DNA of 62,873 bases, counting the filler, from Stramenopiles sp. TOSAG23-2 (taxonomy: Eukaryota): the NCBI GenBank assembly GCA_900128395.1. It is 4 parts of 4 records of this genome, joined end to end, with 100 filler letters (N's around TTAATTAATTAA, not from the genome) between each part and the next. Parts side by side here need not be neighbours in the genome. Positions count along the whole stretch, not along the records: positions 1 to 15,667 come from LT649699.1; 3 more parts are not named here. One strand, 5' to 3'. The notes beneath the pieces were generated by a model. The model was not told the DNA's origin. It made no database searches and worked only from the letters and a program-made list of their open reading frames with translations. Positions 2-53,506 of this stretch are shown here, piece after piece (the first letter of the stretch is position 1; the number at the start of each line of letters is the position of its first letter). Made by a program: the position numbers and the translations under genes.

Positions 2-181
2 GATGGTGGAATACAAAGTATTATTGATGTATTAAAAACAAACAATACATTAAAGTTCTTGACCCTAGATAATAATCAACTTAGTGATAATATGATATCA
101 CAATTAAAAGCTATACAACAATATAAAAAAGATGGATCAAACGGGTATCAACAAGTGGAAGGGATGTTTATAGGCACATAA
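2..181 (+). CDS. 3' end (partial) of an RI-like LRR protein; paralog of the TIR-CC-LRR gene at 14336-15667
   Basis: Manual translation DGGIQSIIDVLKTNNTLKFLTLDNNQLSDNMISQLKAIQQYKKDGSNGYQQVEGMFIGT*. Positions 2-154 align gap-free with 15515-15667 (141/153 nt identical). Not in the ORF track. Confidence 0.85.
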   Translation, partial: DGGIQSIIDVLKTNNTLKFLTLDNNQLSDNMISQLKAIQQYKKDGSNGYQQVEGMFIGT

Positions 182-308
182 TAATTAATATATATATATT
201 GTATACTACCAACTACAATATCCCTATATATAAAAGAGTAATATACACACACCATCACACAACACAACACAACACACGCACGCACGCACACACACACATT
301 CCTTTTCA

Positions 309-11188: not shown

Positions 11189-13342
11189 TTACACTACTCC
11201 GCATTCTCCCTGATCATAACCACATTGCACGGTAAAACAACCAGATTCATTATTTCGTAACGATTCTATAAATCTTTGATCGAAATCAACCCCTGGATAC
11301 ATACCAGAAATTTCATGGTAATATGAATAGTGGTACAGTTCGTCATCACAATAATTGTTTCCGAGCCAAGTCTTTGGGCAATTAATGCTACATTGCTTCT
11401 CACACATTTTCCCGTCCTTGTCAACACCGCATACTGGATTATTTGCAATTGAACAATAATCTAAGTTATTGCACCACGATAATTGATTTGCATCAATCGA
11501 TGCAATTTTATTGTATCGTATGTCAAAAAACGAAAGTTGTTTTAAATGCATGATACATTCTGGAATGACATCAAGTTTGTTATTCCAAATACCTATCTTT
11601 TCTAATTTATCATTATTACAAAAAGCACTTTCTTCTATATTTTTAATTTGATTGTCAAATAACCATATGCTTTGTAAATTTTTCAACTCGTTAACGGATT
11701 TTGGTACACTTTCGATTGAATTGGCAACCAAGTTAAGATACGATACTATTGGCAATATTGATAATTCATTTGGTATTTCCTTAATCTTATTGTAGCCAAA
11801 ATCAACTTCTTCAAGTTGTGGCATATTAGAAGAAAATGGAATTTTTGTCAGATTATTTTCTTTAGCACTTAGAAGCCAGAGTTCCGTTGCTTTTGAGATT
11901 GATGATGGTAAATTCATTAAATTATTGCCATCAACTTGAATGCGAAATAAATCCTTCGGGGCACTGAATAAGCTACTTGGCAGCGATTGTAAGCGATTAT
12001 TATTGAAATCTACATGCATCAATCTTTCATGATTGTAACCAAAATTTTCGGATAAACTTTTTAATCTGCTGTAAATAATTTCAACTTTTGTTAAGCCATC
12101 AAATTCATCAAACGATTTCGGTAATGTTTCTTCCGTGTAATTTGTTATCTGTATGTAAGCACAATTGCATTTAGGTGAAAACGGTGCATTACAAAATGGA
12201 ACATGAATTTTACATCCATTCCATATTTCTTTTGTATGTTTTTCCTGGCAAACATTATTTGATGGAGTCAATGCAAATTGCAAAGACAATATTCCAATAA
12301 ATGCAATTATATATAATACGTTTAATAATATGAATGCTTTACGAATTGTTGGTGGCAGTCTTTGCGCTTGCTTTAGAGTCAAATCTGTTACTGATGATCT
12401 TCTTGGTTTTCGTCTTTTTTTGACTGCGATAAAACGTTCCCTCAGAAAATCATGCCTTTTTTGAATTGTATCTATCCATAATTCAAATAGTTTTGACATA
12501 ACTAAAAGTGATGGAACCAATATACATACCAAAACTTGGCCAATAGTTTGTGGAACAAAAAATATTAGAAACATTGACATCGTTGGAACTCCCATACAAA
12601 AAACATCTGTAAATATATCCAATAATATTTGTCGATTACGCACGGTGGAGGACTCGAGATGAAATAGAGACCATAAAGACAGGGCTGCCTCCGCTATTAA
12701 AACTAAAAGAATAAACACTAAGAAAACTTGCGGTAAAGCGCATGCGTACACAGAAAAATATGTATACATTTGCCATACGATTTCTATGTTTTCAGAAAGA
12801 TACATTTTGATTAAATAATATTCTCCGTCTAAAGTAAAGAATGCGATGTAAAACCAAGTAACGAAAGGCTGCTTCGACTCTTCTCCTTTGGTACTATCAT
12901 TTCCTTGGATTTTTTCGAACAATTTGAAACAAACATTAAAACTCAATAATCTCGATTTTAACAATACTTCAGCGATACAAACACAAATAATAATGATTCC
13001 CGTACATATCACAATTAAATGCAACCAAATAAATGGTCTATCAAGTCCTCGCATGTCAACAAATACATAGTGTGCACAAATGAAAGCGACAACTATTAAG
13101 AATAAAGCAATACCACTACAAGTACAGCACAACTTGCGTGCATATTTACAACGATTCTTTTTAACAAATGTCAAAAAAAGATCTTGTTCTTCATCTTCCC
13201 CAAACGTAGTAGAATTATTTTCCTCAGATTGTTTTGATAATGGGTTTTCAACTGCCACTTCATCTTTCACAAATGTAGAGTTATTTTCCTCGACGGCAGA
13301 TTTTTTAGATAACGGGTTTTCAACTGTTTGAACTAGTTCCAT
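11189..13342 (-). CDS. Multi-pass membrane protein with C-terminal LRR array and LNR (Lin12/Notch)-like module
   Basis: About 7 hydrophobic segments in the N-terminal half, a Cys cap, ~10 LxxLxLxxN repeats, then CSINCPKTWLGNNYCD...CFTVQCGYDQGEC. Confidence 0.75.
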   Translation of the reverse strand: MELVQTVENPLSKKSAVEENNSTFVKDEVAVENPLSKQSEENNSTTFGEDEEQDLFLTFVKKNRCKYARKLCCTCSGIALFLIVVAFICAHYVFVDMRGLDRPFIWLHLIVICTGIIIICVCIAEVLLKSRLLSFNVCFKLFEKIQGNDSTKGEESKQPFVTWFYIAFFTLDGEYYLIKMYLSENIEIVWQMYTYFSVYACALPQVFLVFILLVLIAEAALSLWSLFHLESSTVRNRQILLDIFTDVFCMGVPTMSMFLIFFVPQTIGQVLVCILVPSLLVMSKLFELWIDTIQKRHDFLRERFIAVKKRRKPRRSSVTDLTLKQAQRLPPTIRKAFILLNVLYIIAFIGILSLQFALTPSNNVCQEKHTKEIWNGCKIHVPFCNAPFSPKCNCAYIQITNYTEETLPKSFDEFDGLTKVEIIYSRLKSLSENFGYNHERLMHVDFNNNRLQSLPSSLFSAPKDLFRIQVDGNNLMNLPSSISKATELWLLSAKENNLTKIPFSSNMPQLEEVDFGYNKIKEIPNELSILPIVSYLNLVANSIESVPKSVNELKNLQSIWLFDNQIKNIEESAFCNNDKLEKIGIWNNKLDVIPECIMHLKQLSFFDIRYNKIASIDANQLSWCNNLDYCSIANNPVCGVDKDGKMCEKQCSINCPKTWLGNNYCDDELYHYSYYHEISGMYPGVDFDQRFIESLRNNESGCFTVQCGYDQGECGVV

Positions 13343-14335: not shown

Positions 14336-15667
14336 ATGGCATCGTTACTAACACCATCTTCGGAAATGGCATATTTAAATGACCCTGGAGAATGGAATTT
14401 CTTTATATCGCATGCACAAGCAGATTCAAAAGATATTGCACTTGATGTTTGGACTTCTTTCACATACGAACAGAAGAAAACATGTTGGTTAGATGTGAAA
14501 ATGGCTGAACGGGATGAAGATGCAATGAAAGAAGGTGTACGAAATTCGAAGATTTTCTTGGTAATTATATCACCTTCATATTTTACAAGACCATTTTGCG
14601 TGAAAGAATTAGAATGGGCTGTTGAATATGGAAAACCAATACAAATTATTATTGATGTTCAATTAAAAGGAGAAATCGGCAATATTATTGACCGTTGTCC
14701 TGCAGATAAAGCATATTTAAAAAATATTGGAAAGATTAATTTTACAGAAGTTTTTCGAGGAAATCCAACGTTTTGGGAAGCAAGTGTGACATCTATTTTG
14801 AAAGCAAAACCAAAGATTCTTATGAAAGATGGTAGTGTTACGGCAGTAGCCAAACAAAATATTGCTGAAGCAACGAAGCAAGGGAAGAAAGAGTTTGAAA
14901 TGGAAAAAGCTCTTCTTGATGCTCAGCATAAACTTAAAGAACAAGAGATGGCAATGAAATTGAAAGAAATGGAGTTGAAACTGGAAGAGCAACGTCTTAA
15001 GAGATGAAAGCGATGCAACAAGATGATGTTGTGGATAATAATAATAATAATAATGATAAGAAAAGTGCTGCGTATATGAAATGGGAAAAAGAATTTGATG
15101 GGAAGACGGGAGTGAATTTGAATGGAAAGAATCTCACGGATGAGGATGCATTAGCTATTGGTGAATTGTTAAAAACAAACAATACATTAACGGTATTGCG
15201 CCTACATAATAATAATATAACTGATGTACAAAGTATTGGTGAAGGATTAAAANNNNNNNNNNNNNNNNNNNGATGAGGATGCATTAGCTATTGGTGAATT
15301 GTTAAAAACAAACAATACATTAACGGTATTGCGCCTACATAATAATAATATAACTGATGTACAAAGTATTGGTGAAGGATTAAAATCAAACAATACATTA
15401 GTGGCATTGGACCTATCTAATAATAATATTACTGATGTACAAAGTATTGGTGAAGGATTAAAATCAAACAATACATTAACGCACTTGTACCTAGATAATA
15501 ATAATATTACTGATGATAGTGGAATACAAAGTATTATGGATGGATTAAAAACAAACAATACATTAAAGTACTTGGACCTAGATAATAATCAACTTAGTTA
15601 TAATATGAAAAGACAATTAAATGCTATACAACAATATAAAAGAGATGGATCAAACGGGTATCAACAA
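14336..15667 (+). CDS. TIR (TIR_2-type) - coiled coil - RI-like LRR protein; 1-nt frameshift near 15000, internal N gap, 3' truncated by contig end
   Basis: TIR motifs FFISHAQ, CWLD and SPSYFTRPFCVKELEWA; K/E/M-rich coiled coil; 26-aa LRR DVQSIGEGLKSNNTLxxLxLxNNNIT. Adding one A to CTTAAGAGATG fuses the two ORFs as ...QRLKEMKAMQQ. Confidence 0.8.
15139..15385. repeat. ~114-bp LRR-coding segment duplicated on both sides of an N gap (15253-15271); scaffolding overlap or collapsed LRR array
   Basis: GATGAGGATGCATTAGCT...GAAGGATTAAA occurs at 15139-15252 and again from 15272. Confidence 0.8.
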
Positions 15668-15767
15668 NNNNNNNNNNNNNNNNNNNNNNNNNNNNNNNNN
15701 NNNNNNNNNNNTTAATTAATTAANNNNNNNNNNNNNNNNNNNNNNNNNNNNNNNNNNNNNNNNNNNN
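15668..15767. other. Artificial contig linker
   Basis: N-run, TTAATTAATTAA (stops in all six frames), N-run. Confidence 0.97.
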
Positions 15768-16288: not shown

Positions 16289-18079
16289 ATGAAAAAGTTT
16301 TGTAATAGACCACTCTTCTTTGTTTCTTTAGGAATGCTCTGCTTGGTTATTTCAATTTTAATTTGGTACTTTAAACTAAGCTTAATTTCCTTGATAACTT
16401 TAGTATATGATTTCCAAGTTCCACCAGAGGATTCACAAGTTCCCCCAGAGTGGTGGTATCAACAAAATTATCAACCTACATTTACTTGTCAACATGAACG
16501 CAGAATTGGTGGTTTAGGTGACGGTCCAAAATGGGTTTGTGACCCGCATAGAATACCACGAGATAGTTGTTTAGTGTATTCCATTGGCTCAAATAATGAT
16601 TTCTCGTTTGAGCAGAATGTTTTAAATGAAATATCAGATAAATGCGAAATACACACATTTGACCCTACTACTGGTAAAAACCCATCAAATAAACCACCAT
16701 CCGTTCATTTCCATCCGTGGGCCGTTGGTTCGAAAACAGAAGTGAATAAACTTGGATGGGAGGTTAAAACGATACAAGATATTATTTCGTCTCTTGGTCA
16801 CAACGATCGTACAATTGACATTTTAAAAATAGATTGTGAAGGTTGTGAATGGGAAAGTTATGATACTTGGTTGAATGGACCAAAAATTCGTCAAATACAA
16901 GTCGAAATGCACGGGATCAAAAAAGCAAAAGAACTGCTTTCTAGTATGTATAATAGCAACTTTGTAGTCTTTCATAAAGAGCCGAACACGTATGGTTGTC
17001 GCGGTTCATGTATCGAATACGCATTTGTTCATTTAAGTGAATATTTTTTTAGTAATATTTATGACAACAGTACGAAAGCATATAGTCGTAAAAATAATAG
17101 AAGTAAAACTTTTAGAGTTCCTCCTCTGCTGCGCCAGCCATTCGAAAATTCATCGGTAGCGTACAAAGAGTCAGATAAATTTTTTACAGATATTAGAGAT
17201 TCAGATTGGTTGCGTATGAAAGAACGACAACGAAATGCGAAGTATTGCTTATACGACGGTTGTCCTGACAATACACCAAATAAGTGGTATCAACAAAATT
17301 ATCAACCTACATTTACTTGTCAACATGAACGCAGAATTGGTGGTTTAGGTGACGGTCCAAAATGGGTTTGTGACCCGCATAGAATACCACGAGATAGTTG
17401 TTTAGTGTATTCCATTGGCTCAAATAATGATTTCTCGTTTGAGCAGAATGTTTTAAATGAAATATCAGATAAATGCGAAATACACACATTTGACCCTACT
17501 ACTGGTAAAAACCCATCAAATAAACCACCATCCGTTCATTTCCATCCGTGGGCCGTTGGTTCGAAAACAGAAGTGAATAAACTTGGATGGGAGGTTAAAA
17601 CGATACAAGATATTATTTCGTCTCTTGGTCACAACGATCGTACAATTGACATTTTAAAAATAGATTGTGAAGGTTGTGAATGGGAAAGTTATGATACTTG
17701 GTTGAATGGACCAAAAATTCGTCAAATACAAGTTAAGTTATACGGGATCAAAAAAGCAAAAGAACTGCTTTCTAGTGCGTATAATAGCAACTTTGTAGTC
17801 TTTCATATCGAACCGGATGCCGCAGGTAAGTGCCAAGCCGACTGTTACGAATTTGCTTTTCTGCGGTTAAGTAATGCATTTTTTAGCGAAGATATAAGAA
17901 GTAACACCTTTAGAATTCCCGCCCCGCCACCACGCAAGCCATTTTTGGATTCAATGTTAGCATACAAAGAGTCAGATGGATTTTTTACAGATATCAGAGA
18001 TTCAGATTGGTTGCGTATGAAAGAACGCCAACGAAATGCGAAGTATTGCAATACTAATGTGAGATGCGGAAAGAAGTAG
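16289..18079 (+). CDS. Type II membrane Methyltransf_22 (METTL24-like) protein with tandemly duplicated domain
   Basis: N-terminal TM segment. RIGGLGDGPKWVCDPHR, CLVYSIGSNNDFSFE, CEIHTFDP and IDILKIDCEGCEW each occur twice with an 831-nt period. Confidence 0.85.
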   Translation: MKKFCNRPLFFVSLGMLCLVISILIWYFKLSLISLITLVYDFQVPPEDSQVPPEWWYQQNYQPTFTCQHERRIGGLGDGPKWVCDPHRIPRDSCLVYSIGSNNDFSFEQNVLNEISDKCEIHTFDPTTGKNPSNKPPSVHFHPWAVGSKTEVNKLGWEVKTIQDIISSLGHNDRTIDILKIDCEGCEWESYDTWLNGPKIRQIQVEMHGIKKAKELLSSMYNSNFVVFHKEPNTYGCRGSCIEYAFVHLSEYFFSNIYDNSTKAYSRKNNRSKTFRVPPLLRQPFENSSVAYKESDKFFTDIRDSDWLRMKERQRNAKYCLYDGCPDNTPNKWYQQNYQPTFTCQHERRIGGLGDGPKWVCDPHRIPRDSCLVYSIGSNNDFSFEQNVLNEISDKCEIHTFDPTTGKNPSNKPPSVHFHPWAVGSKTEVNKLGWEVKTIQDIISSLGHNDRTIDILKIDCEGCEWESYDTWLNGPKIRQIQVKLYGIKKAKELLSSAYNSNFVVFHIEPDAAGKCQADCYEFAFLRLSNAFFSEDIRSNTFRIPAPPPRKPFLDSMLAYKESDGFFTDIRDSDWLRMKERQRNAKYCNTNVRCGKK

Positions 18080-31429: not shown

Positions 31430-31529
31430 NNNNNNNNNNNNNNNNNNNNNNNNNNNNNNNNNNNNNNNNNNNNTTAATTAATTAANNNNNNNNNNNNNNN
31501 NNNNNNNNNNNNNNNNNNNNNNNNNNNNN
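31430..31529. other. Artificial contig linker
   Basis: N-run, TTAATTAATTAA, N-run. Confidence 0.97.
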
Positions 31530-47184: not shown

Positions 47185-47284
47185 NNNNNNNNNNNNNNNN
47201 NNNNNNNNNNNNNNNNNNNNNNNNNNNNTTAATTAATTAANNNNNNNNNNNNNNNNNNNNNNNNNNNNNNNNNNNNNNNNNNNN
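47185..47284. other. Artificial contig linker
   Basis: N-run, TTAATTAATTAA, N-run. Confidence 0.97.
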
Positions 47285-50560: not shown

Positions 50561-52258
50561 ATGTTTTTACGTTGTGTTATTTCCAATACGTTGAAAAAAA
50601 ATATCAACAATGCAAGAATAAAATCAATTAGTGGTAAACAACAACGTCAATTATTTGTCTTATCAACAAGAAAAACCATCGCTGCTGCTCCAACAACGTT
50701 GGCTTCTTCTAAATTTCAATTTATTAAACCATTGTCTACTACTAGTAGTGCTACAACTAGTACTTCAAATTATACCCCTGAATTAGAACAATTTACAAAA
50801 TCATTTTTAGAGGAAGTGAAAGATGTTCCACATGCAACAGATCCAGCTCAATCTAGTAAAATCTTGCGTCAATTATGTAAAACAGAGTTATTGAAATTTA
50901 CAGACATGAGAGATAATCCAGAAAAGTTTTTCATGGCACATCGATTATTATCTACTGTTGGTTTAGGTGGTTTTGGTATTCGTTTTACAGTTCAATTTAA
51001 TTTATTTGCTGGAAGTTTGGTGGGGCTTGCTAGTGAAGAACAATTAAAAATGTTAGATGAGATTCAAAAAGAAGGTAAACTTGGTTGTTTTTTATTAACG
51101 GAAATGCAAGCTGGTGTATTATCTGGTTTAATTGTTGAAACGACGGTTGATTGGGATAGTAACAATCAAGAATTTGTTTTAAATACACCTAGTGATAAAG
51201 CTGCGAAAAATTGGATAAGTCAAGGTTTTGTAGCAGATTGTGGTGTGATTATTGCTAATTTACGAATCGATGGAGAATCGTATGGGCCACATGCATTTTA
51301 TATGGATTTAAGAGATGGGAATAAAAATTTATTACCTGGTATACGTATTGAAGATATGGGTGTCAAAACAATTGCAAATGATTTAGACAATGCACGTGTC
51401 TGGTTTGATAATGTGAAATTACCAAAAAATGCATTATTAAATAAATTTGCAGATATCAATGATAATAATGAATATGTTCAAGTTACGGATGAACGTATGA
51501 GAATCGAAGTGATTGGTCAACGTTTATTAACGGGTAGAATTGCAATTGCAGAAGCTGCATTGTTTTCTGCACGTGTATTGCATATGAAAACGGAAGAATA
51601 TGCAACTCAAAAAATATGCAATGGATTAACTGGTGAAACAACATTAAGCAATATGCCTCAATTAAAAAATGTTTTAAATAATTCATATGCAAAAATTGAT
51701 AAAATGATTAGTTTTACAGCAGCTGTAGAAAATGATTTAAATGATTGTTTACGAAATGATCGTATACCAGATGATGAATTAGTTGAAAAAATTGCTGTAT
51801 GTAAAATTAAATGCATTGAAGTAGCCATTGAATGCGCACATGCATTGCAATTAGAAGTTGGTTCCTACGCTTTGATGCATGATACCGGGTTTGAATTATT
51901 TGATATGTTATTATGTTGTAAATTTGCTGAAGGGGATAGTAGAATATTGCAACAAAAATTGACACGCGATCGTTTAAATCGTGTAAGAAAAGATGGTGTA
52001 TTTAGTACATTAACTGAATTTTCAAAAGAATCATGGTCTTCATTGCAATTGGCAAATAAAATGAAATCCGCTGGTAGAGATTTAGATAAAATTGCTAAAG
52101 CATTGGATGACAATTGGAAGGAAGTGTATGATTTAGCAGATCAAGTATGCGAACGCCATATACAAAACACACCCGGTAGTGCCTTTCTTGAACCATGCGT
52201 CAATCGTTTAAAAGGTGCAGATTTTGATTTTGATAAAGAATGGAAAGATAAGATATAA
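50561..52258 (+). CDS. Acyl-CoA oxidase/dehydrogenase family flavoprotein with mitochondrial-type presequence
   Basis: RFTVQFNLFAG, GCFLLTE, FVLNTP..AAKNWIS, DMGVKT..NDLDNARVWFDNV, FAEGDSRIL. Confidence 0.85.
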   Translation: MFLRCVISNTLKKNINNARIKSISGKQQRQLFVLSTRKTIAAAPTTLASSKFQFIKPLSTTSSATTSTSNYTPELEQFTKSFLEEVKDVPHATDPAQSSKILRQLCKTELLKFTDMRDNPEKFFMAHRLLSTVGLGGFGIRFTVQFNLFAGSLVGLASEEQLKMLDEIQKEGKLGCFLLTEMQAGVLSGLIVETTVDWDSNNQEFVLNTPSDKAAKNWISQGFVADCGVIIANLRIDGESYGPHAFYMDLRDGNKNLLPGIRIEDMGVKTIANDLDNARVWFDNVKLPKNALLNKFADINDNNEYVQVTDERMRIEVIGQRLLTGRIAIAEAALFSARVLHMKTEEYATQKICNGLTGETTLSNMPQLKNVLNNSYAKIDKMISFTAAVENDLNDCLRNDRIPDDELVEKIAVCKIKCIEVAIECAHALQLEVGSYALMHDTGFELFDMLLCCKFAEGDSRILQQKLTRDRLNRVRKDGVFSTLTEFSKESWSSLQLANKMKSAGRDLDKIAKALDDNWKEVYDLADQVCERHIQNTPGSAFLEPCVNRLKGADFDFDKEWKDKI

Positions 52259-52519
52259 ATGCAAATGGAAAACGGAAAGAAAGAATTTAATGAAGAAAGG
52301 GGAGGGATACAAAAATAAAAGCGTTTAAAAGGTGCAGATTTTGATTTTGATAAAGAATGGAAAGATAAGATATAAATGCAAATGGAAAACGGAAAGAAAG
52401 AATTTAATGAAGAAAGGGGAGGGATACAAAAATAAAAGTGTGCGTGGTTAAAAATATTTCATGTCATGTTTTAAAATATAAATTATAAAAAACTATATTT
52501 GAGATGCAAATGTTTCTCA

Positions 52520-53506
52520 TCATGACACTTTCCTCTTTTTCTTCTGCTCGTTACTGTCACCACCACTAGTCATCGACTTCATATTCATGTTTACATATGC
52601 CAACAAGATCAATATATTCACTGATGTAAAAATGGATAAATATACAGTTGAAATCTCCTCATGATCATCATCATCATTCTCGTTACTGTCACCACCACTA
52701 GTCATCGACTTCATATTCATGTTTACATATGCCAACAAGATCAATATATTCACTGATGTAAAAATGGATAAATATACAGTTGAAATCTCCTCATGATCAT
52801 CATCATCATTCTCATCTTTTCTTATTTTAATTTCCTTTAATTTTGTCTTTGATGTTGTTAAATCGATTGAACTATCAAAGATTTCATCAAAGAGTTGATT
52901 TTGAGTTTTACGATTGTTATCATTATTTATTTCATTAAAATTTAATTTTATGGAACCGAATTTCCATTTATATCCAGAAGGAACATCGGGACCACCGACA
53001 AATATTGTAATATCATAATTACTAGATTCAGATTTAAATCTTCCAGCTTCTTTTGATAAATCAATTGTTGCAACATAATGATTACCATTCTCATTATTTA
53101 AATCCTCACCCTCATTGTTGTTGTTATTATTAGTATTGTCTTTGTCGAGTTTGGCTAAAAAAAATGTATCCCGATTTGATTTAATATTTGTAAATGCTAC
53201 AAATGTTTGATGCGGTTTAGCTGGTTGTTTATCACCATTTTTTTCATTAGCTTCCACACAATAAAAAGATACACGCAATGAATGCTTGTCTCTTTCATTT
53301 GCTTCTAATGACTTTATCAACGTATGCCCAGACTTTACCATAACTGCATCAATTTGTTTCTTTTTTTTAAAGATTGTTAATGTAGTAGATGGTATTTGAT
53401 ATTTTACATTATTATTATCTTCCCCACTATCATTGCTAAAAAAAAAACTTGTTGATTTTGATATAAATAAAGTTAAAATTAATAATATGATGTAATATTT
53501 CTTCAT
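52520..53506 (-). CDS. Short ribophorin II (RPN2/Swp1)-like ER membrane protein; TM segment duplicated (132 bp)
   Basis: Signal peptide; KPHQTFVAF, YDITIFVGG and WKFGSIKLNF match the last luminal domain of ribophorin II; ends KRKVS (KxKxx). Confidence 0.6.
   Translation of the reverse strand: MKKYYIILLILTLFISKSTSFFFSNDSGEDNNNVKYQIPSTTLTIFKKKKQIDAVMVKSGHTLIKSLEANERDKHSLRVSFYCVEANEKNGDKQPAKPHQTFVAFTNIKSNRDTFFLAKLDKDNTNNNNNNEGEDLNNENGNHYVATIDLSKEAGRFKSESSNYDITIFVGGPDVPSGYKWKFGSIKLNFNEINNDNNRKTQNQLFDEIFDSSIDLTTSKTKLKEIKIRKDENDDDDHEEISTVYLSIFTSVNILILLAYVNMNMKSMTSGGDSNENDDDDHEEISTVYLSIFTSVNILILLAYVNMNMKSMTSGGDSNEQKKKRKVS

What the first reader, a model, noticed from the sequence alone, without database searches (positions are those of the whole stretch)
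2..154. Paralogous LRR C-termini differ at 10 of 51 codons, all non-synonymous
Codon-by-codon comparison of 2-154 with 15515-15667 shows 12 substitutions in 10 codons: G/S, I/M, V/G, F/Y, T/D, D/Y, I/K, S/R, K/N, K/R. No codon differs synonymously only. This pattern is expected under diversifying selection. The extreme AT codon bias suppresses synonymous change and the sample is small, so it is suggestive rather than conclusive.
Basis: seen in the sequence. Interest (0 to 1): 0.75.

Follow-up and report, generated by a model that had tools for sequence, protein, structure and literature searches.

The report
Hypervariable LRR cassette gene family
The two stretches are the tail ends of two members of a very large leucine-rich-repeat gene family of an uncultured marine protist, in which nearly all DNA letters are kept identical between copies except a few codons on the predicted binding face that are driven to differ, much as in immune-type recognition receptors.

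Summary
Taken alone the pair does not reject neutrality (P about 0.07-0.10).

M0 omega is 1.74. M1a/M2a gives 2dlnL = 226, with about 12% of codons at omega about 10. Selected codons are 18, 19, 21, 23 (the x positions of TLxxLxLxxN), 39, 54 and 56.

Only 2 of the 10 pair differences (codons 19, 21) lie at such sites. Six are reshuffled family dimorphisms and two are private to copy 2.

AT bias does not suppress synonymous change: a control paralog pair in the window has pS 0.17 against pN 0.08.

The cassette is fused to TIR, caspase, ankyrin, XK-related or membrane N-termini, and no NOD domain was found.

The evolutionary regime matches fungal NLR repeats and brown-alga ROCO LRRs. I file it as a new variant of a known kind.

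The parts
2..181 (+). Copy 1 (W1): C-terminal cap of an LRR cassette gene whose 5' part lies beyond the scaffold start. It has 59 codons plus the stop TAA at 179-181: last LRR unit, helix, terminal strand MxIxT.
   Evidence: Translation. Aligned with 36 fetched copies. Secondary structure is read by homology to the model of L015.
53..73 (+). W1 codons 18-24 (KFLTLDN). These are the x positions of TLxxLxLxxN: codons 18, 19, 21, 23 and 24 are the hypervariable codons of the family.
   Evidence: The family shows 9, 9, 13, 14 and 4 different residues at these codons among 37-38 copies. The model strand is x-L-x.
161..175 (+). W1 codons 54-58 (GMFIG). This is the terminal beta-strand region, with hypervariable codons 54, 56 and 58.
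   Evidence: The family shows 6, 13 and 16 residues at codons 54, 56 and 58. Codons 54 and 56 are positive. The model strand 328-330 corresponds to codons 56-58. Codon 58 was not in the 57-codon test set.
202..223 (+). Family-specific conserved 3'UTR motif, 20 nt after the W1 stop.
   Evidence: It is the only match in the window at up to 3 mismatches, with 0 expected. It is exact in 12 of 42 loci and present with up to 4 substitutions in 27 of 42 loci, 10-36 nt after the stop where an intact stop was called.
14336..15007 (+). N-terminal part of the copy 2 gene: TIR domain (residues 22-109) followed by a coiled-coil-like stretch. The window shows a stop at 15005-15007.
   Evidence: Pfam TIR_2 E = 6.5e-12 and TIR E = 5.1e-6. 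The depth is single-copy-like (7-65) in all four runs.
15000..15001 (+). Two letters present in the window but missing from a contig in each of four sequencing runs. Without them the TIR frame runs straight into the LRR frame (...EEQRLKMKAMQQDD...).
   Evidence: table 4 ('left out 2' at 15000 in X1, X2, X3 and X8). Contigs of 5,697 and 4,676 nt match 14336-15106/15108 with 0 other letters and 2 gaps (table 8). L007 has the same junction in frame.
15056..15514 (+). Multicopy cassette of the copy 2 gene: N-cap (KKSAAYMKWEKEFDGK...) and 26-residue (78-nt) LRR units. 15253-15271 is a 19-N gap, and 15272-15385 is an exact repeat of 15139-15252 (a scaffolding artefact).
   Evidence: Summed depth jumps from 7-65 to 100-170,000 at the 15056-15100 bin. 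Pfam gives LRR_4, LRR_6, LRR_1 and LRR_8. The exact 114-nt duplication is shown, and the units are listed.
15515..15667 (+). Copy 2 (W2): the first 51 codons of the C-terminal cap, cut by the scaffold end. Hypervariable codons are at 15566-15571, 15575-15577 and 15581-15586.
   Evidence: Codons 8 (M) and 33 (R) are private to W2 among 37-38 copies. The letters at 15611-15612 were not found in the run contigs.
15668..15767 (.). Linker (44 N + TTAATTAATTAA + 44 N) between two independent scaffolds. It is not biology.
   Evidence: The same pattern occurs at 15668, 31430 and 47185, and the piece lengths are in descending order.

Best explanation

The cassette consists of an N-cap, a variable number of 26-residue LRR units, a C-cap ending in a short beta-strand, and about 50 nt of 3'UTR with a conserved motif. 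It is attached to unrelated N-terminal parts: TIR, caspase, ankyrin, XK-related and membrane segments.

It evolves under two superimposed processes:
1. Homogenisation and exchange between copies keep the framework nearly identical at every codon position and reshuffle a handful of dimorphic residues. This is concerted evolution, by recent amplification and/or gene conversion.
2. Diversifying selection acts on the solvent-exposed x residues of each beta-strand (TLxxLxLxxN) and of the terminal MxIxT strand. Almost every unit therefore carries a different binding-surface signature.

The W1/W2 differences are 2 selected-site changes, 6 reassorted dimorphisms and 2 private changes of copy 2.

By inference, the proteins form a repertoire of variable binding modules coupled to signalling or death-type effector domains. 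That would make it a receptor repertoire for non-self (pathogen, prey or conspecific) recognition.

Shown here: the anatomy, the variability pattern, the selection statistics and the domain fusions. Inferred: the mechanism of homogenisation, ligand binding and the biological role.
For: All 38 aligned C-caps are distinct.

Framework identity: framework codons are almost invariant even at third positions, for example GGA 31/31, CAA 36/36, TTA 37/37, CTA 37/38 and GGG 37/38. Codons 18, 19, 21, 23, 56 and 58 carry 9-16 residues each.

Nucleotide diversity per site at codon positions 1/2/3:
- Hypervariable codons of the C-cap: 0.60, 0.55, 0.41.
- Hypervariable codons of internal units: 0.58, 0.57, 0.19.
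- Framework: 0.05-0.09 at all three positions.
- 3'UTR motif: 0.07.

Codon models with F3x4 frequencies:
- M0 omega is 1.74 (2dlnL against 1 = 8.2).
- M2a against M1a gives 2dlnL 226, with omega2 = 9.6 and p2 = 0.12. M8 against M7 gives 221. Sites 18, 19, 21, 23, 39, 54 and 56 have posterior above 0.95.
- With a site-specific synonymous rate the positive sites are 18, 21 (p = 2.5e-11), 23, 39, 54 (5e-4) and 56 (2.6e-5). The negative sites are 9, 13, 27, 41, 45, 46 and 55.
- A star tree gives the same picture.
- 77 distinct internal units give positive unit codons 14, 15 and 17 (p = 4e-17) and seven negative framework codons.

Not simple decay or saturation:
- There are 3 stop codons among 578 hypervariable codons, against 32 expected from their own base frequencies (P = 3e-11).
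- Tyr is TAC 45: TAT 1 at four hypervariable positions, and TAC 0: TAT 23 at five others. The third base is retained while positions 1-2 turn over.

Exchange between copies:
- All four gametes are present in 84 of 146 framework site pairs.
- Framework distance between units is 0.076 within a locus and 0.082 between loci.
- 75 distinct x-signatures occur in 78 units.

Structure: in the AF2 model of L015 (pLDDT above 90 across the LRRs) every strand is x-L-x with the hypervariable residues, and the last strand covers codons 56-58. Foldseek finds LRR horseshoes, with NOD2, Roco and internalin on top.

Multicopy status: 202-752 contigs per run were laid on the 1,332-nt stretch laid (14336-15667). 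Between 11 and 44 distinct contigs cover single cassette positions in each run. The TIR part behaves as single copy.

Domain fusions: TIR_2 in the window and L002, Peptidase_C14 in L023, Ank in L032, XK-related in L013.
Against: - The pair itself is not significant.
- A tree-free lower-bound count of substitutions (a minimum spanning tree over distinct codons) gives 19.5 synonymous against 114.5 nonsynonymous, where 25.1 synonymous are expected. P = 0.15, which is not significant.
- The codon-model tests are my own implementation, with fixed topologies and one scale factor for branch lengths. The pervasive recombination violates the single-tree assumption and is known to inflate site-model tests.
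- The copies come from contigs of several assemblies, so paralogs, alleles and orthologs are mixed.
- The seeds constrain codons 7-14 or 18-25 at the protein level.
- Synonymous differences among same-residue pairs are more frequent at hypervariable codons (0.10) than in the framework (0.017-0.059). A somewhat higher mutation input or greater age at these codons is therefore not excluded.
- About a third of the codons fit omega = 1.
- About ten of the 42 loci carry stops, frameshifts or truncations. Part of the family may be decaying, or the draft assemblies may be erroneous, as the window is at 15000.
- Expression, binding and the biological role were not tested.
Confidence: 0.72

Rival explanations
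1. Chance plus relaxed constraint. The two caps are drifting, perhaps decaying, copies, and some differences are draft-assembly errors at scaffold ends. The all-nonsynonymous pattern simply reflects that about 80% of sites are nonsynonymous.
For: - P(0 of 12 synonymous | neutral) is 0.08-0.10, and the ML likelihood-ratio test gives p = 0.07-0.10.
- 120 of 703 family pairs also have Sd = 0.
- 32% of codons fit omega = 1.
- The window has a 2-nt error at 15000, and copy 2's letters at 15611-15612 are unsupported.
- A 114-nt artefactual duplication flanks the gap.
- Some copies carry stops or frameshifts.
Against: - Variation is concentrated in a few codons, with omega about 10.
- Seven framework codons in the C-cap and seven in the units are under purifying selection.
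- Stops are about tenfold depleted at hypervariable codons.
- Reading frames of 346-533 codons with a start codon and an upstream stop are intact.
- Eight of the ten differences are states shared with other family members, not random errors.
Confidence: 0.1
2. The hypervariability is mutational rather than selective. A targeted or programmed diversification process hits the x codons, for example templated cassette exchange, a local hypermutation mechanism, or somatic recombination that uses the conserved flanks and 3'UTR motif.
For: - There is a sevenfold contrast in diversity between neighbouring codons of an otherwise identical framework.
- Stop codons, where they occur in the repeats, mostly sit at hypervariable positions: TAG at codon 18 of L027 and TAA at unit codon 15 of L004 and L006. 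One lies elsewhere, TGA at unit codon 6 of L014.
- Orphan or truncated cassettes exist that could act as donors (L019, L029, L034).
- Synonymous diversity is somewhat raised at these codons.
- Somatic recombination has been proposed for brown-alga LRR genes (abstract of PMC3341825).
Against: - Third bases of the hypervariable codons are largely retained and are position-specific: C in 35 of 38 copies at codon 21, T in 32 of 38 at codon 23, and TAC against TAT split by position. A process blind to codon position would not leave that.
- Tests that allow a site-specific synonymous rate still give beta far above alpha.
- Stops are strongly depleted.
- Framework adenines are invariant, for example AAT 77-78 of 78, which excludes DGR-like adenine mutagenesis.
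- No enzyme or signal was identified.
Confidence: 0.08
3. The evolutionary regime is the same, but the role is not immune-like. The variable LRR surfaces could serve prey or particle recognition during phagotrophy, mating or kin recognition, or substrate selection (some members may be F-box-like adaptors).
For: - No NOD module was found.
- Many members have membrane or unannotated N-termini rather than death or immune domains (L018, L024, L026, L015, L007).
- The 26-residue N-x-x-I-T-D unit resembles, from recall, the cysteine-containing LRR class of F-box proteins.
- Fungal relatives of this regime act in allorecognition (abstract of PMC1805685).
Against: TIR, caspase and XK-related N-termini are domains typically tied to immune or cell-death signalling. 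That link is established knowledge, not tested here. Nothing in the data separates these roles.
Confidence: 0.25

Closest known systems
Fungal NLR repeat domains with high internal conservation (Podospora anserina HNWD/het-d/het-e WD repeats; ANK and TPR repeats of fungal NLRs)
   Same: - Repeats are nearly identical at the DNA level and are exchanged within and between family members.
- A few codons per repeat, on the interaction surface, are under positive diversifying selection.
- Repeat number varies, and N-terminal effector domains are combined freely.

Sources: abstract of PMC1805685 and passages of PMC4986451. Here.
   Different: - The repeat type here is LRR, which those authors report as absent from fungal NLRs (PMC4986451).
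- No NACHT or NB-ARC module was found here.
- The host is a marine protist.
- A conserved C-cap and a 3'UTR motif belong to the exchanged unit.
- RIP was not examined.
Ectocarpus (brown alga) LRR-ROCO and NB-ARC-TPR candidate receptors
   Same: An LRR domain under diversifying selection in an expanded, fast birth-and-death family outside animals and plants, with repeat shuffling obscuring paralogy (abstract of PMC3341825).
   Different: - In Ectocarpus each repeat is its own exon and shuffling is by exons. Here the units are contiguous in one open frame.
- No ROC-COR GTPase was found.
- Effector domains differ: TIR, caspase, ankyrin and XK-related.
Plant NLR / R-gene LRR domains (xxLxLxx solvent-exposed hypervariable residues)
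   Same: Hypervariability and omega above 1 are concentrated at the x positions of the LRR beta-strand, and some members have a TIR N-terminus. The plant pattern is recalled from established knowledge and comes from no call.
   Different: There is no NB-ARC between TIR and LRR. The 26-residue units have near-identical frameworks, and the LRR arrays are much shorter (3-8 units).
Jawless-vertebrate variable lymphocyte receptors (VLR)
   Same: LRR modules with an invariant framework and variable concave-face residues, capped by dedicated N- and C-terminal units, and many cassette-like partial copies. The VLR features are recalled and come from no call.
   Different: VLR diversity is assembled somatically from germline cassettes by a cytidine-deaminase-linked process. 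No evidence of somatic assembly was obtained here, and the copies here are mostly complete genes with their own N-terminal domains.

Membership tests
Leucine-rich repeat proteins (Pfam LRR clan) | Tandem LxxLxLxxN-type repeats that match LRR profile HMMs and fold as a solenoid with a parallel beta-sheet | tested here: met
   LRR_4 E = 1.6e-13, LRR_6 3e-10, LRR_1 and LRR_8 on window 15272-15667. The AF2 model shows regular strand-helix units with pLDDT above 90. Foldseek top hits are LRR domains with E down to 3.8e-11. The 59-residue cap of copy 1 alone gives no Pfam hit.
TIR-domain proteins | A match to the TIR profile above the curated cut-off | tested here: met
   Window 14336-15004 gives TIR_2 at 46.4 bits (cut-off 28) and TIR at 26.8 bits (cut-off 21.3). 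L002 also matches TIR_2. Catalytic residues were not examined.
NOD-like receptors (NLR / STAND: effector - NACHT or NB-ARC - repeats) | A central NACHT or NB-ARC NTPase domain between the effector and the repeats | tested here: not met
   No NACHT or NB-ARC hit at E <= 1e-3 in the window gene or in 11 family reading frames. Four of these have a start codon and an upstream stop (L023, L032, L015, L007). Six frames run off the fetched DNA, so their upstream parts are unseen. A direct search of the source records was not possible.
Toll-like receptors | An extracellular N-terminal LRR ectodomain, one transmembrane helix, and a cytoplasmic C-terminal TIR | tested here: not met
   The domain order is the reverse: TIR at residues 22-109, then a coiled-coil-like stretch, then the LRRs. 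Transmembrane prediction was not run.
Repeat receptors with 'high internal conservation' (fungal HNWD type) | Repeats more than about 85% identical to each other | tested here: inconclusive
   Mean unit-to-unit identity is 84.5% for nucleotides and 73.9% for residues over whole units. It is about 92% for nucleotides when the five hypervariable codons are left out (framework distance 0.076-0.082). The published threshold (85% identity over at least 100 residues; PMC4986451) is not strictly reached at the protein level.
Repeat receptors with 'high internal conservation' (fungal HNWD type) | A few codons per repeat under positive selection, lying on the binding surface | tested here: met
   Unit codons 14, 15 and 17, and C-cap codons 18, 21, 23, 39, 54 and 56. 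They lie in or next to the strands of the model.
Repeat receptors with 'high internal conservation' (fungal HNWD type) | Exchange of repeats within and between loci (concerted evolution) | tested here: met
   Framework distance is 0.076 within a locus and 0.082 between loci. The four-gamete test is positive in 84 of 146 site pairs. The process itself (conversion or recent bursts) is not resolved.
Diversity-generating retroelements (DGR) | Adenine-specific differences between a template repeat and a variable repeat, with a nearby reverse transcriptase | tested here: not met
   Framework adenines are invariant, for example AAT 77/78 and 78/78, and AAA 74/78. Variation affects specific codons whatever their base. 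The reverse transcriptase was not searched for.
VLR-type somatically assembled LRR receptors | An incomplete germline gene completed in somatic cells from flanking cassettes | not testable with these tools
   This needs reads from single cells or clones. Only assembled contigs were available.

The most novel reading that the evidence does not exclude
An uncultured marine protist carries a NOD-less innate recognition repertoire. Tens to hundreds of genes share one exchangeable LRR cassette with a standard C-cap and 3'UTR tag. The cassette's concave-face residues are individually diversified, and it is plugged onto death or immune effectors (TIR, caspase, XK-related scramblase-like).

In the boldest form, cassette exchange is a programmed process that uses the conserved flanks as recombination signals. 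This is gene-conversion-like, possibly even somatic, and would be analogous to VLR assembly or to the proposal made for brown algae.
Probability: 0.12. Interest if true: 0.9.

Novelty: new variant of a known kind. Interest (0 to 1): 0.62.

Why it matters
Receptor repertoires that combine a near-identical repeat framework with a few hyperdiverse surface codons are known from fungi (WD, ANK and TPR repeats of NLRs), brown algae and plants.

Finding the same regime in LRR form would extend this way of generating recognition diversity to free-living unicellular eukaryotes. Here it occurs without a NOD module, fused to TIR, caspase and XK-related domains, in an abundant uncultured marine protist. 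It would also give a concrete gene set for asking whether such cells have an immune or allorecognition system.

Practically, the case shows why such families break draft assemblies: both copies lie at scaffold ends. It also shows why a pairwise dN/dS on two fragments is not enough.

Four literature searches listed no paper describing this family in a protist. That is no proof that it is unpublished.

Tried and rejected
- No whole genome is held for the window, so 'all paralogs in the genome' could not be collected. Public marine contigs were used instead.
I wrote a pruning-likelihood codon model with fixed topologies instead.
- A first per-site optimiser also timed out and was replaced by a grid.
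- A tree-free minimum-substitution count was not significant and is reported as evidence against.
- The within-codon contrast is weaker than I first thought. Third positions of hypervariable codons are themselves 2-7 times more diverse than framework third positions. I rely instead on the position-specific Tyr codons and on the tests with a site-specific synonymous rate.
- The records behind the loci are not held for genome search, so regions upstream of the fetched 1,500 nt are unseen.
- The protein database gave only 13 relatives of the C-cap among 15 candidates of 280-893 residues, none named. Shorter and longer proteins were not searched.
Nothing can be said on expression.
- The summed word depth of the cassette is 200-1,500 times that of the TIR part. 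By the tool's own warning this is not a copy number, so I use only the counts of distinct contigs.
- A DGR-like mechanism was considered and rejected.
- The lineage of the organism was not determined.
Full report
**1. The observation**

Window 2-154 and 15515-15667 align without gaps. They differ at 12 bases in 10 of 51 codons, and every differing codon changes the residue: G/S, I/M, V/G, F/Y, T/D, D/Y, I/K, S/R, K/N, K/R. There are 3 transitions and 9 transversions, and codon positions 1/2/3 carry 4/6/2 of the changes. blastn and tblastn find no third copy of this C-terminus in the window.

**2. Is the pair more than chance?**

Nei-Gojobori counting gives 27.5 synonymous and 125.5 nonsynonymous sites, with Sd = 0 and Nd = 12. 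The probability of no synonymous change among 12 under omega = 1 is 0.09. It is 0.10 at kappa 0.67, 0.077 at kappa 1 and 0.041 at kappa 2. A pairwise codon likelihood with F3x4 frequencies puts omega at infinity, but 2dlnL against omega = 1 is only 2.7-3.4, p = 0.07-0.10. So the pair rejects strong purifying selection but not neutrality.

**3. What the window is**

- N runs of 44 + TTAATTAATTAA + 44 lie at 15668, 31430 and 47185. They cut the window into pieces of 15667, 15662, 15655 and 15589 bases. I infer four whole scaffolds of a draft assembly, joined by a linker.
- Both LRR copies therefore lie at the two ends of one scaffold and both are truncated, as expected where a repeat family breaks an assembly.
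- No whole genome is held.
- The DNA is 32% G+C, with Asn-rich reading frames and typical eukaryotic domains: PH, HEAT/transportin-like, polycystin channel, teneurin-type EGF and Kelch.
- Its words occur in small organism-labelled runs and in many marine metagenomes.
- I call it an uncultured AT-rich marine protist. The lineage was not determined.

**4. The gene around copy 2**

- 14336-15004 encodes a TIR domain (TIR_2 E = 6.5e-12) and a coiled-coil-like stretch. 15272-15667 matches the LRR profiles.
- The window shows a stop at 15005. A contig in each of four runs lacks two letters at 15000 (table 4).
- Contigs of 5,697 and 4,676 nt match 14336-15106/8 otherwise perfectly (table 8).
- Without those letters the TIR frame continues into the LRR frame. 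A relative (L007) has the same junction in frame. The gene is thus TIR, then coiled coil, then LRR in one frame, and the stop is an assembly error.
- The 19-N gap at 15253-15271 is followed by an exact 114-nt repeat of 15139-15252, which is another assembly artefact.
- The real gene has an N-cap unit, two internal 26-residue units and the C-cap.

**5. Copy number**

- On the TIR part the four runs show depths of 7-65. From the 15056-15100 bin onward the summed depth is 100 to 170,000.
- 202, 363, 752 and 514 contigs were laid in X1, X2, X3 and X8.
- The tool warns that summed depth is not a copy number. The firmer figure is the number of distinct contigs over single positions: 11, 12, 19 and 13 at 15611, and 22, 35, 44 and 38 at 15464.
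- The cassette is therefore present in at least tens of distinct versions per run.
- At 15611-15612 every contig in X1, X2 and X8, and nearly all depth in X3, reads T and C (as in copy 1) instead of the window's A and G. Copy 2's Arg33 is uncorroborated.

**6. More copies**

- A scan of public metagenome contigs used the alignment of the two caps (seeds I[IM]D[VG]LKTN and K[FY]L[TD]LDNN).
- 36 loci give a gap-free C-cap. Six were dropped: L028, L036, L037 and L038 for indels or frameshifts, and L041 and L042 for matching only residues 3-24.
- In L034 codons 1-5 were masked and in L039 codons 1-19, because they are out of frame.
- With W1 and W2 this makes 38 sequences, all different.

**7. The variability pattern**

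- Framework codons are almost invariant at all three positions: GGA 31/31, CAA 36/36, TTA 37/37, CTA 37/38 and GGG 37/38.
- Codons 18, 19, 21, 23 and 24 carry 9, 9, 13, 14 and 4 residues. Codons 56 and 58 carry 13 and 16.
- Codons 18-24 are the x positions of TLxxLxLxxN. The 78 internal units found in the loci and the window show the same pattern at unit codons 14, 15, 17, 19 and 20.
- Per-site diversity at hypervariable codons is 0.60/0.55/0.41 at positions 1/2/3 in the C-cap, and 0.58/0.57/0.19 in internal units. The framework has 0.05-0.09 at all three positions.
- A non-coding 22-nt motif 10-36 nt after the stop is found in 27 of 42 loci (up to 4 substitutions), with diversity 0.07. In the window it occurs only at 202-223. 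Beyond the motif the flanks are unrelated.

**8. Where the W1/W2 differences fall**

- Codons 19 and 21 are hypervariable.
- Codons 2 (G 12 : S 19), 10 (V 15 : G 21), 29 (D 29 : Y 5), 32 (K 33 : I 3), 36 (K 21 : N 9) and 43 (R 24 : K 9) are family dimorphisms.
- Met8 and Arg33 are private to copy 2.
- The dimorphisms occur in nearly all combinations. All four gametes are present in 84 of 146 framework site pairs, and there are 36 different seven-site haplotypes in 38 sequences.

**9. Selection tests**

- Pairwise: mean pS is 0.056 and mean pN 0.105 over 51 codons. 622 of 703 pairs have pN > pS and 120 have Sd = 0. W1/W2 (Nd 12) sits at the median of 12.5.
- Codon likelihood (my implementation, F3x4, FastTree topology, one scale factor): M0 omega = 1.74 and kappa = 1.63, with 2dlnL against omega = 1 of 8.2.
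- M1a against M2a gives 2dlnL = 226, with omega 0.11/1/9.6 in proportions 0.55/0.32/0.12. M7 against M8 gives 221. Sites 18, 19, 21, 23, 39, 54 and 56 have posterior above 0.95.
- With a free synonymous rate at every site, the positive sites are 18, 21 (p = 2.5e-11), 23, 39, 54 and 56. Site 19 has p = 0.067. The negative sites are 9, 13, 27, 41, 45, 46 and 55.
- A star tree gives positive sites 10, 18, 19, 21, 23, 39, 54 and 56, with M0 omega = 2.29.
- Internal units (77 distinct of 78): M0 omega = 1.12 (not different from 1). Positive unit codons are 14, 15 and 17 (p = 4e-17). Negative ones are 3, 4, 7, 10, 13, 18 and 23.
- Against this, a tree-free lower bound on substitutions is not significant: 19.5 synonymous against 114.5 nonsynonymous, with 25.1 synonymous expected. 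Recombination violates the tree assumption of all the likelihood tests.

**10. Neither decay nor saturation**

- Stops make up 3 of 578 hypervariable codons, against 32 expected from their own base frequencies (P = 3e-11).
- Tyr is TAC 45: TAT 1 at four hypervariable positions, and TAC 0: TAT 23 at five others.
- The third base is C in 35 of 38 copies at codon 21 and T in 32 of 38 at codon 23.
- The ancestral third base is therefore retained while positions 1-2 turn over. That fits selection on the residue better than loss of constraint or a codon-blind mutator.
- The caveat is that synonymous differences among same-residue pairs are 0.10 at hypervariable codons, against 0.017-0.059 in the framework.

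**11. Control for the 'AT bias' argument**

The only other sizeable repeat pair in the window is the internal duplication of a Methyltransf_22 gene, 16453-17248 against 17284-18049. It has 246 aligned codons with Sd 24.8, Nd 46.2, pS 0.168, pN 0.078 and ratio 0.47. Synonymous change is not suppressed in this genome. This is a single control pair.

**12. Concerted evolution**

The framework distance between units is 0.076 within a locus (114 pairs) and 0.082 between loci (2,889 pairs). The distance at positions 1-2 of hypervariable codons is 0.57-0.58 in both comparisons. 75 different five-residue x signatures occur in 78 units.

**13. Structure**

An AF2 model of L015:685-1677 was built with a 15-row alignment. 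Mean pLDDT is 78.5, above 90 over the LRRs and below 50 for residues 1-59. It is a regular strand-helix solenoid. Each strand is x-L-x with the two central hypervariable residues. The C-cap is a long helix followed by a last strand that covers codons 56-58. Foldseek's best hits are LRR domains of NOD2, designed LRRs, Roco and internalins. I could not read the coordinates, so 'concave face' rests on the strand assignment and on established LRR geometry.

**14. Architectures**

The same cassette follows TIR_2 (window, L002), Peptidase_C14 (L023, E = 5.5e-20), ankyrin repeats (L032), an XK-related domain (L013), and hydrophobic or unannotated N-termini (L018, L024, L026, L015, L031, L007, L040). 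No NACHT or NB-ARC was found in any of them. Six frames run off the fetched DNA. Some loci hold truncated or orphan cassettes, or units with stops (L004, L006, L014, L019, L027, L029, L034, L035). The protein database holds 13 relatives of the C-cap among 15 candidates, none named.

**15. Comparison with what is known**

- The regime matches the fungal HNWD/NLR repeats: concerted evolution of near-identical repeats, and four surface codons per repeat under positive selection (abstract of PMC1805685). High internal conservation with positive selection is also reported for ANK and TPR repeats, and LRRs are reported as absent from fungal NLRs (passages of PMC4986451).
- It also resembles the Ectocarpus LRR-ROCO family: diversifying selection on the LRRs, exon shuffling, and a proposal of somatic recombination (abstract of PMC3341825).
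- It differs by repeat type or gene structure, by the lack of a NOD or ROC-COR module, and by the set of effector domains.
- Comparisons with plant R genes and with VLRs are recalled, not tested.
- Four searches listed no paper describing this family in a protist.

**16. Verdict**

As a pairwise test it is inconclusive, and eight of the ten differences are not at selected sites. The family to which the two fragments belong shows strong site-specific diversifying selection on the predicted binding face of an otherwise homogenised LRR cassette. I give 0.72 to this evolutionary reading. The receptor-repertoire function is inference.

Noticed in passing
window 15668-15767, 31430-31529, 47185-47284: The window is not one contiguous stretch. 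Three 100-nt linkers (44 N, TTAATTAATTAA, 44 N) join four pieces of 15667, 15662, 15655 and 15589 bases, which look like whole scaffolds sorted by length. Features should not be read across these joins.
   Followed up: partly
window 15000-15007: The window carries two extra letters relative to a contig in each of four public runs. This creates a false stop that splits the TIR-LRR gene into two reading frames.
   Followed up: yes
window 15139-15385: The 19-N gap (15253-15271) is flanked by an exact 114-nt duplication (15139-15252 = 15272-15385). This is an unmerged overlap that adds a spurious LRR unit to the gene.
   Followed up: yes
window 202-223; L001-L039, 10-36 nt after the stop: A conserved non-coding 22-nt motif lies just downstream of the cassette genes, in 27 of 42 loci. 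It occurs nowhere else in the 62.9-kb window. Its role is unknown: a poly(A) or regulatory signal, the boundary of the exchanged unit, or a recombination signal.
   Followed up: partly
window 16289-18079: One reading frame holds two tandem Methyltransf_22 domains. The first roughly 150 aligned residues are identical between the halves and the rest has diverged (pS 0.17 overall). This suggests partial homogenisation within the gene.
   Followed up: partly
window 11189-13342 (- strand): Next to the TIR-LRR gene lies a 717-residue membrane protein with a different class of LRRs (LRR_8, E = 7.8e-20) and a Cys-rich C-terminus. It is unrelated at the DNA level to the cassette family.
   Followed up: no
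window 52202-52813: Tandem direct repeats of about 120-135 nt at 98-100% identity lie beside or within the ribophorin-II-like gene (52520-53506, - strand).
   Followed up: no
L004 unit at 957; L006 unit at 1503: Two loci from different assemblies share the same LRR unit signature with an in-frame TAA at the second x position (E*YDN). This is either an inherited pseudogene unit or orthologous copies.
   Followed up: no
L015, L032 and L006 N-termini: Several cassette genes share an unannotated N-terminal region (MASLVT..., a Thr-rich run, ...DLPGILQICxGT...DDDILAxINMFAKT...) with no Pfam hit. It is predicted as three helices at moderate confidence and could be an F-box-like adaptor domain, which is a guess.
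   Followed up: no
L040 723-899 (+) and 1978-2268 (-): Two cassette genes lie tail to tail within 1.1 kb on one contig, and W1 and W2 lie 15.5 kb apart on one scaffold. Family members may be clustered.
   Followed up: no
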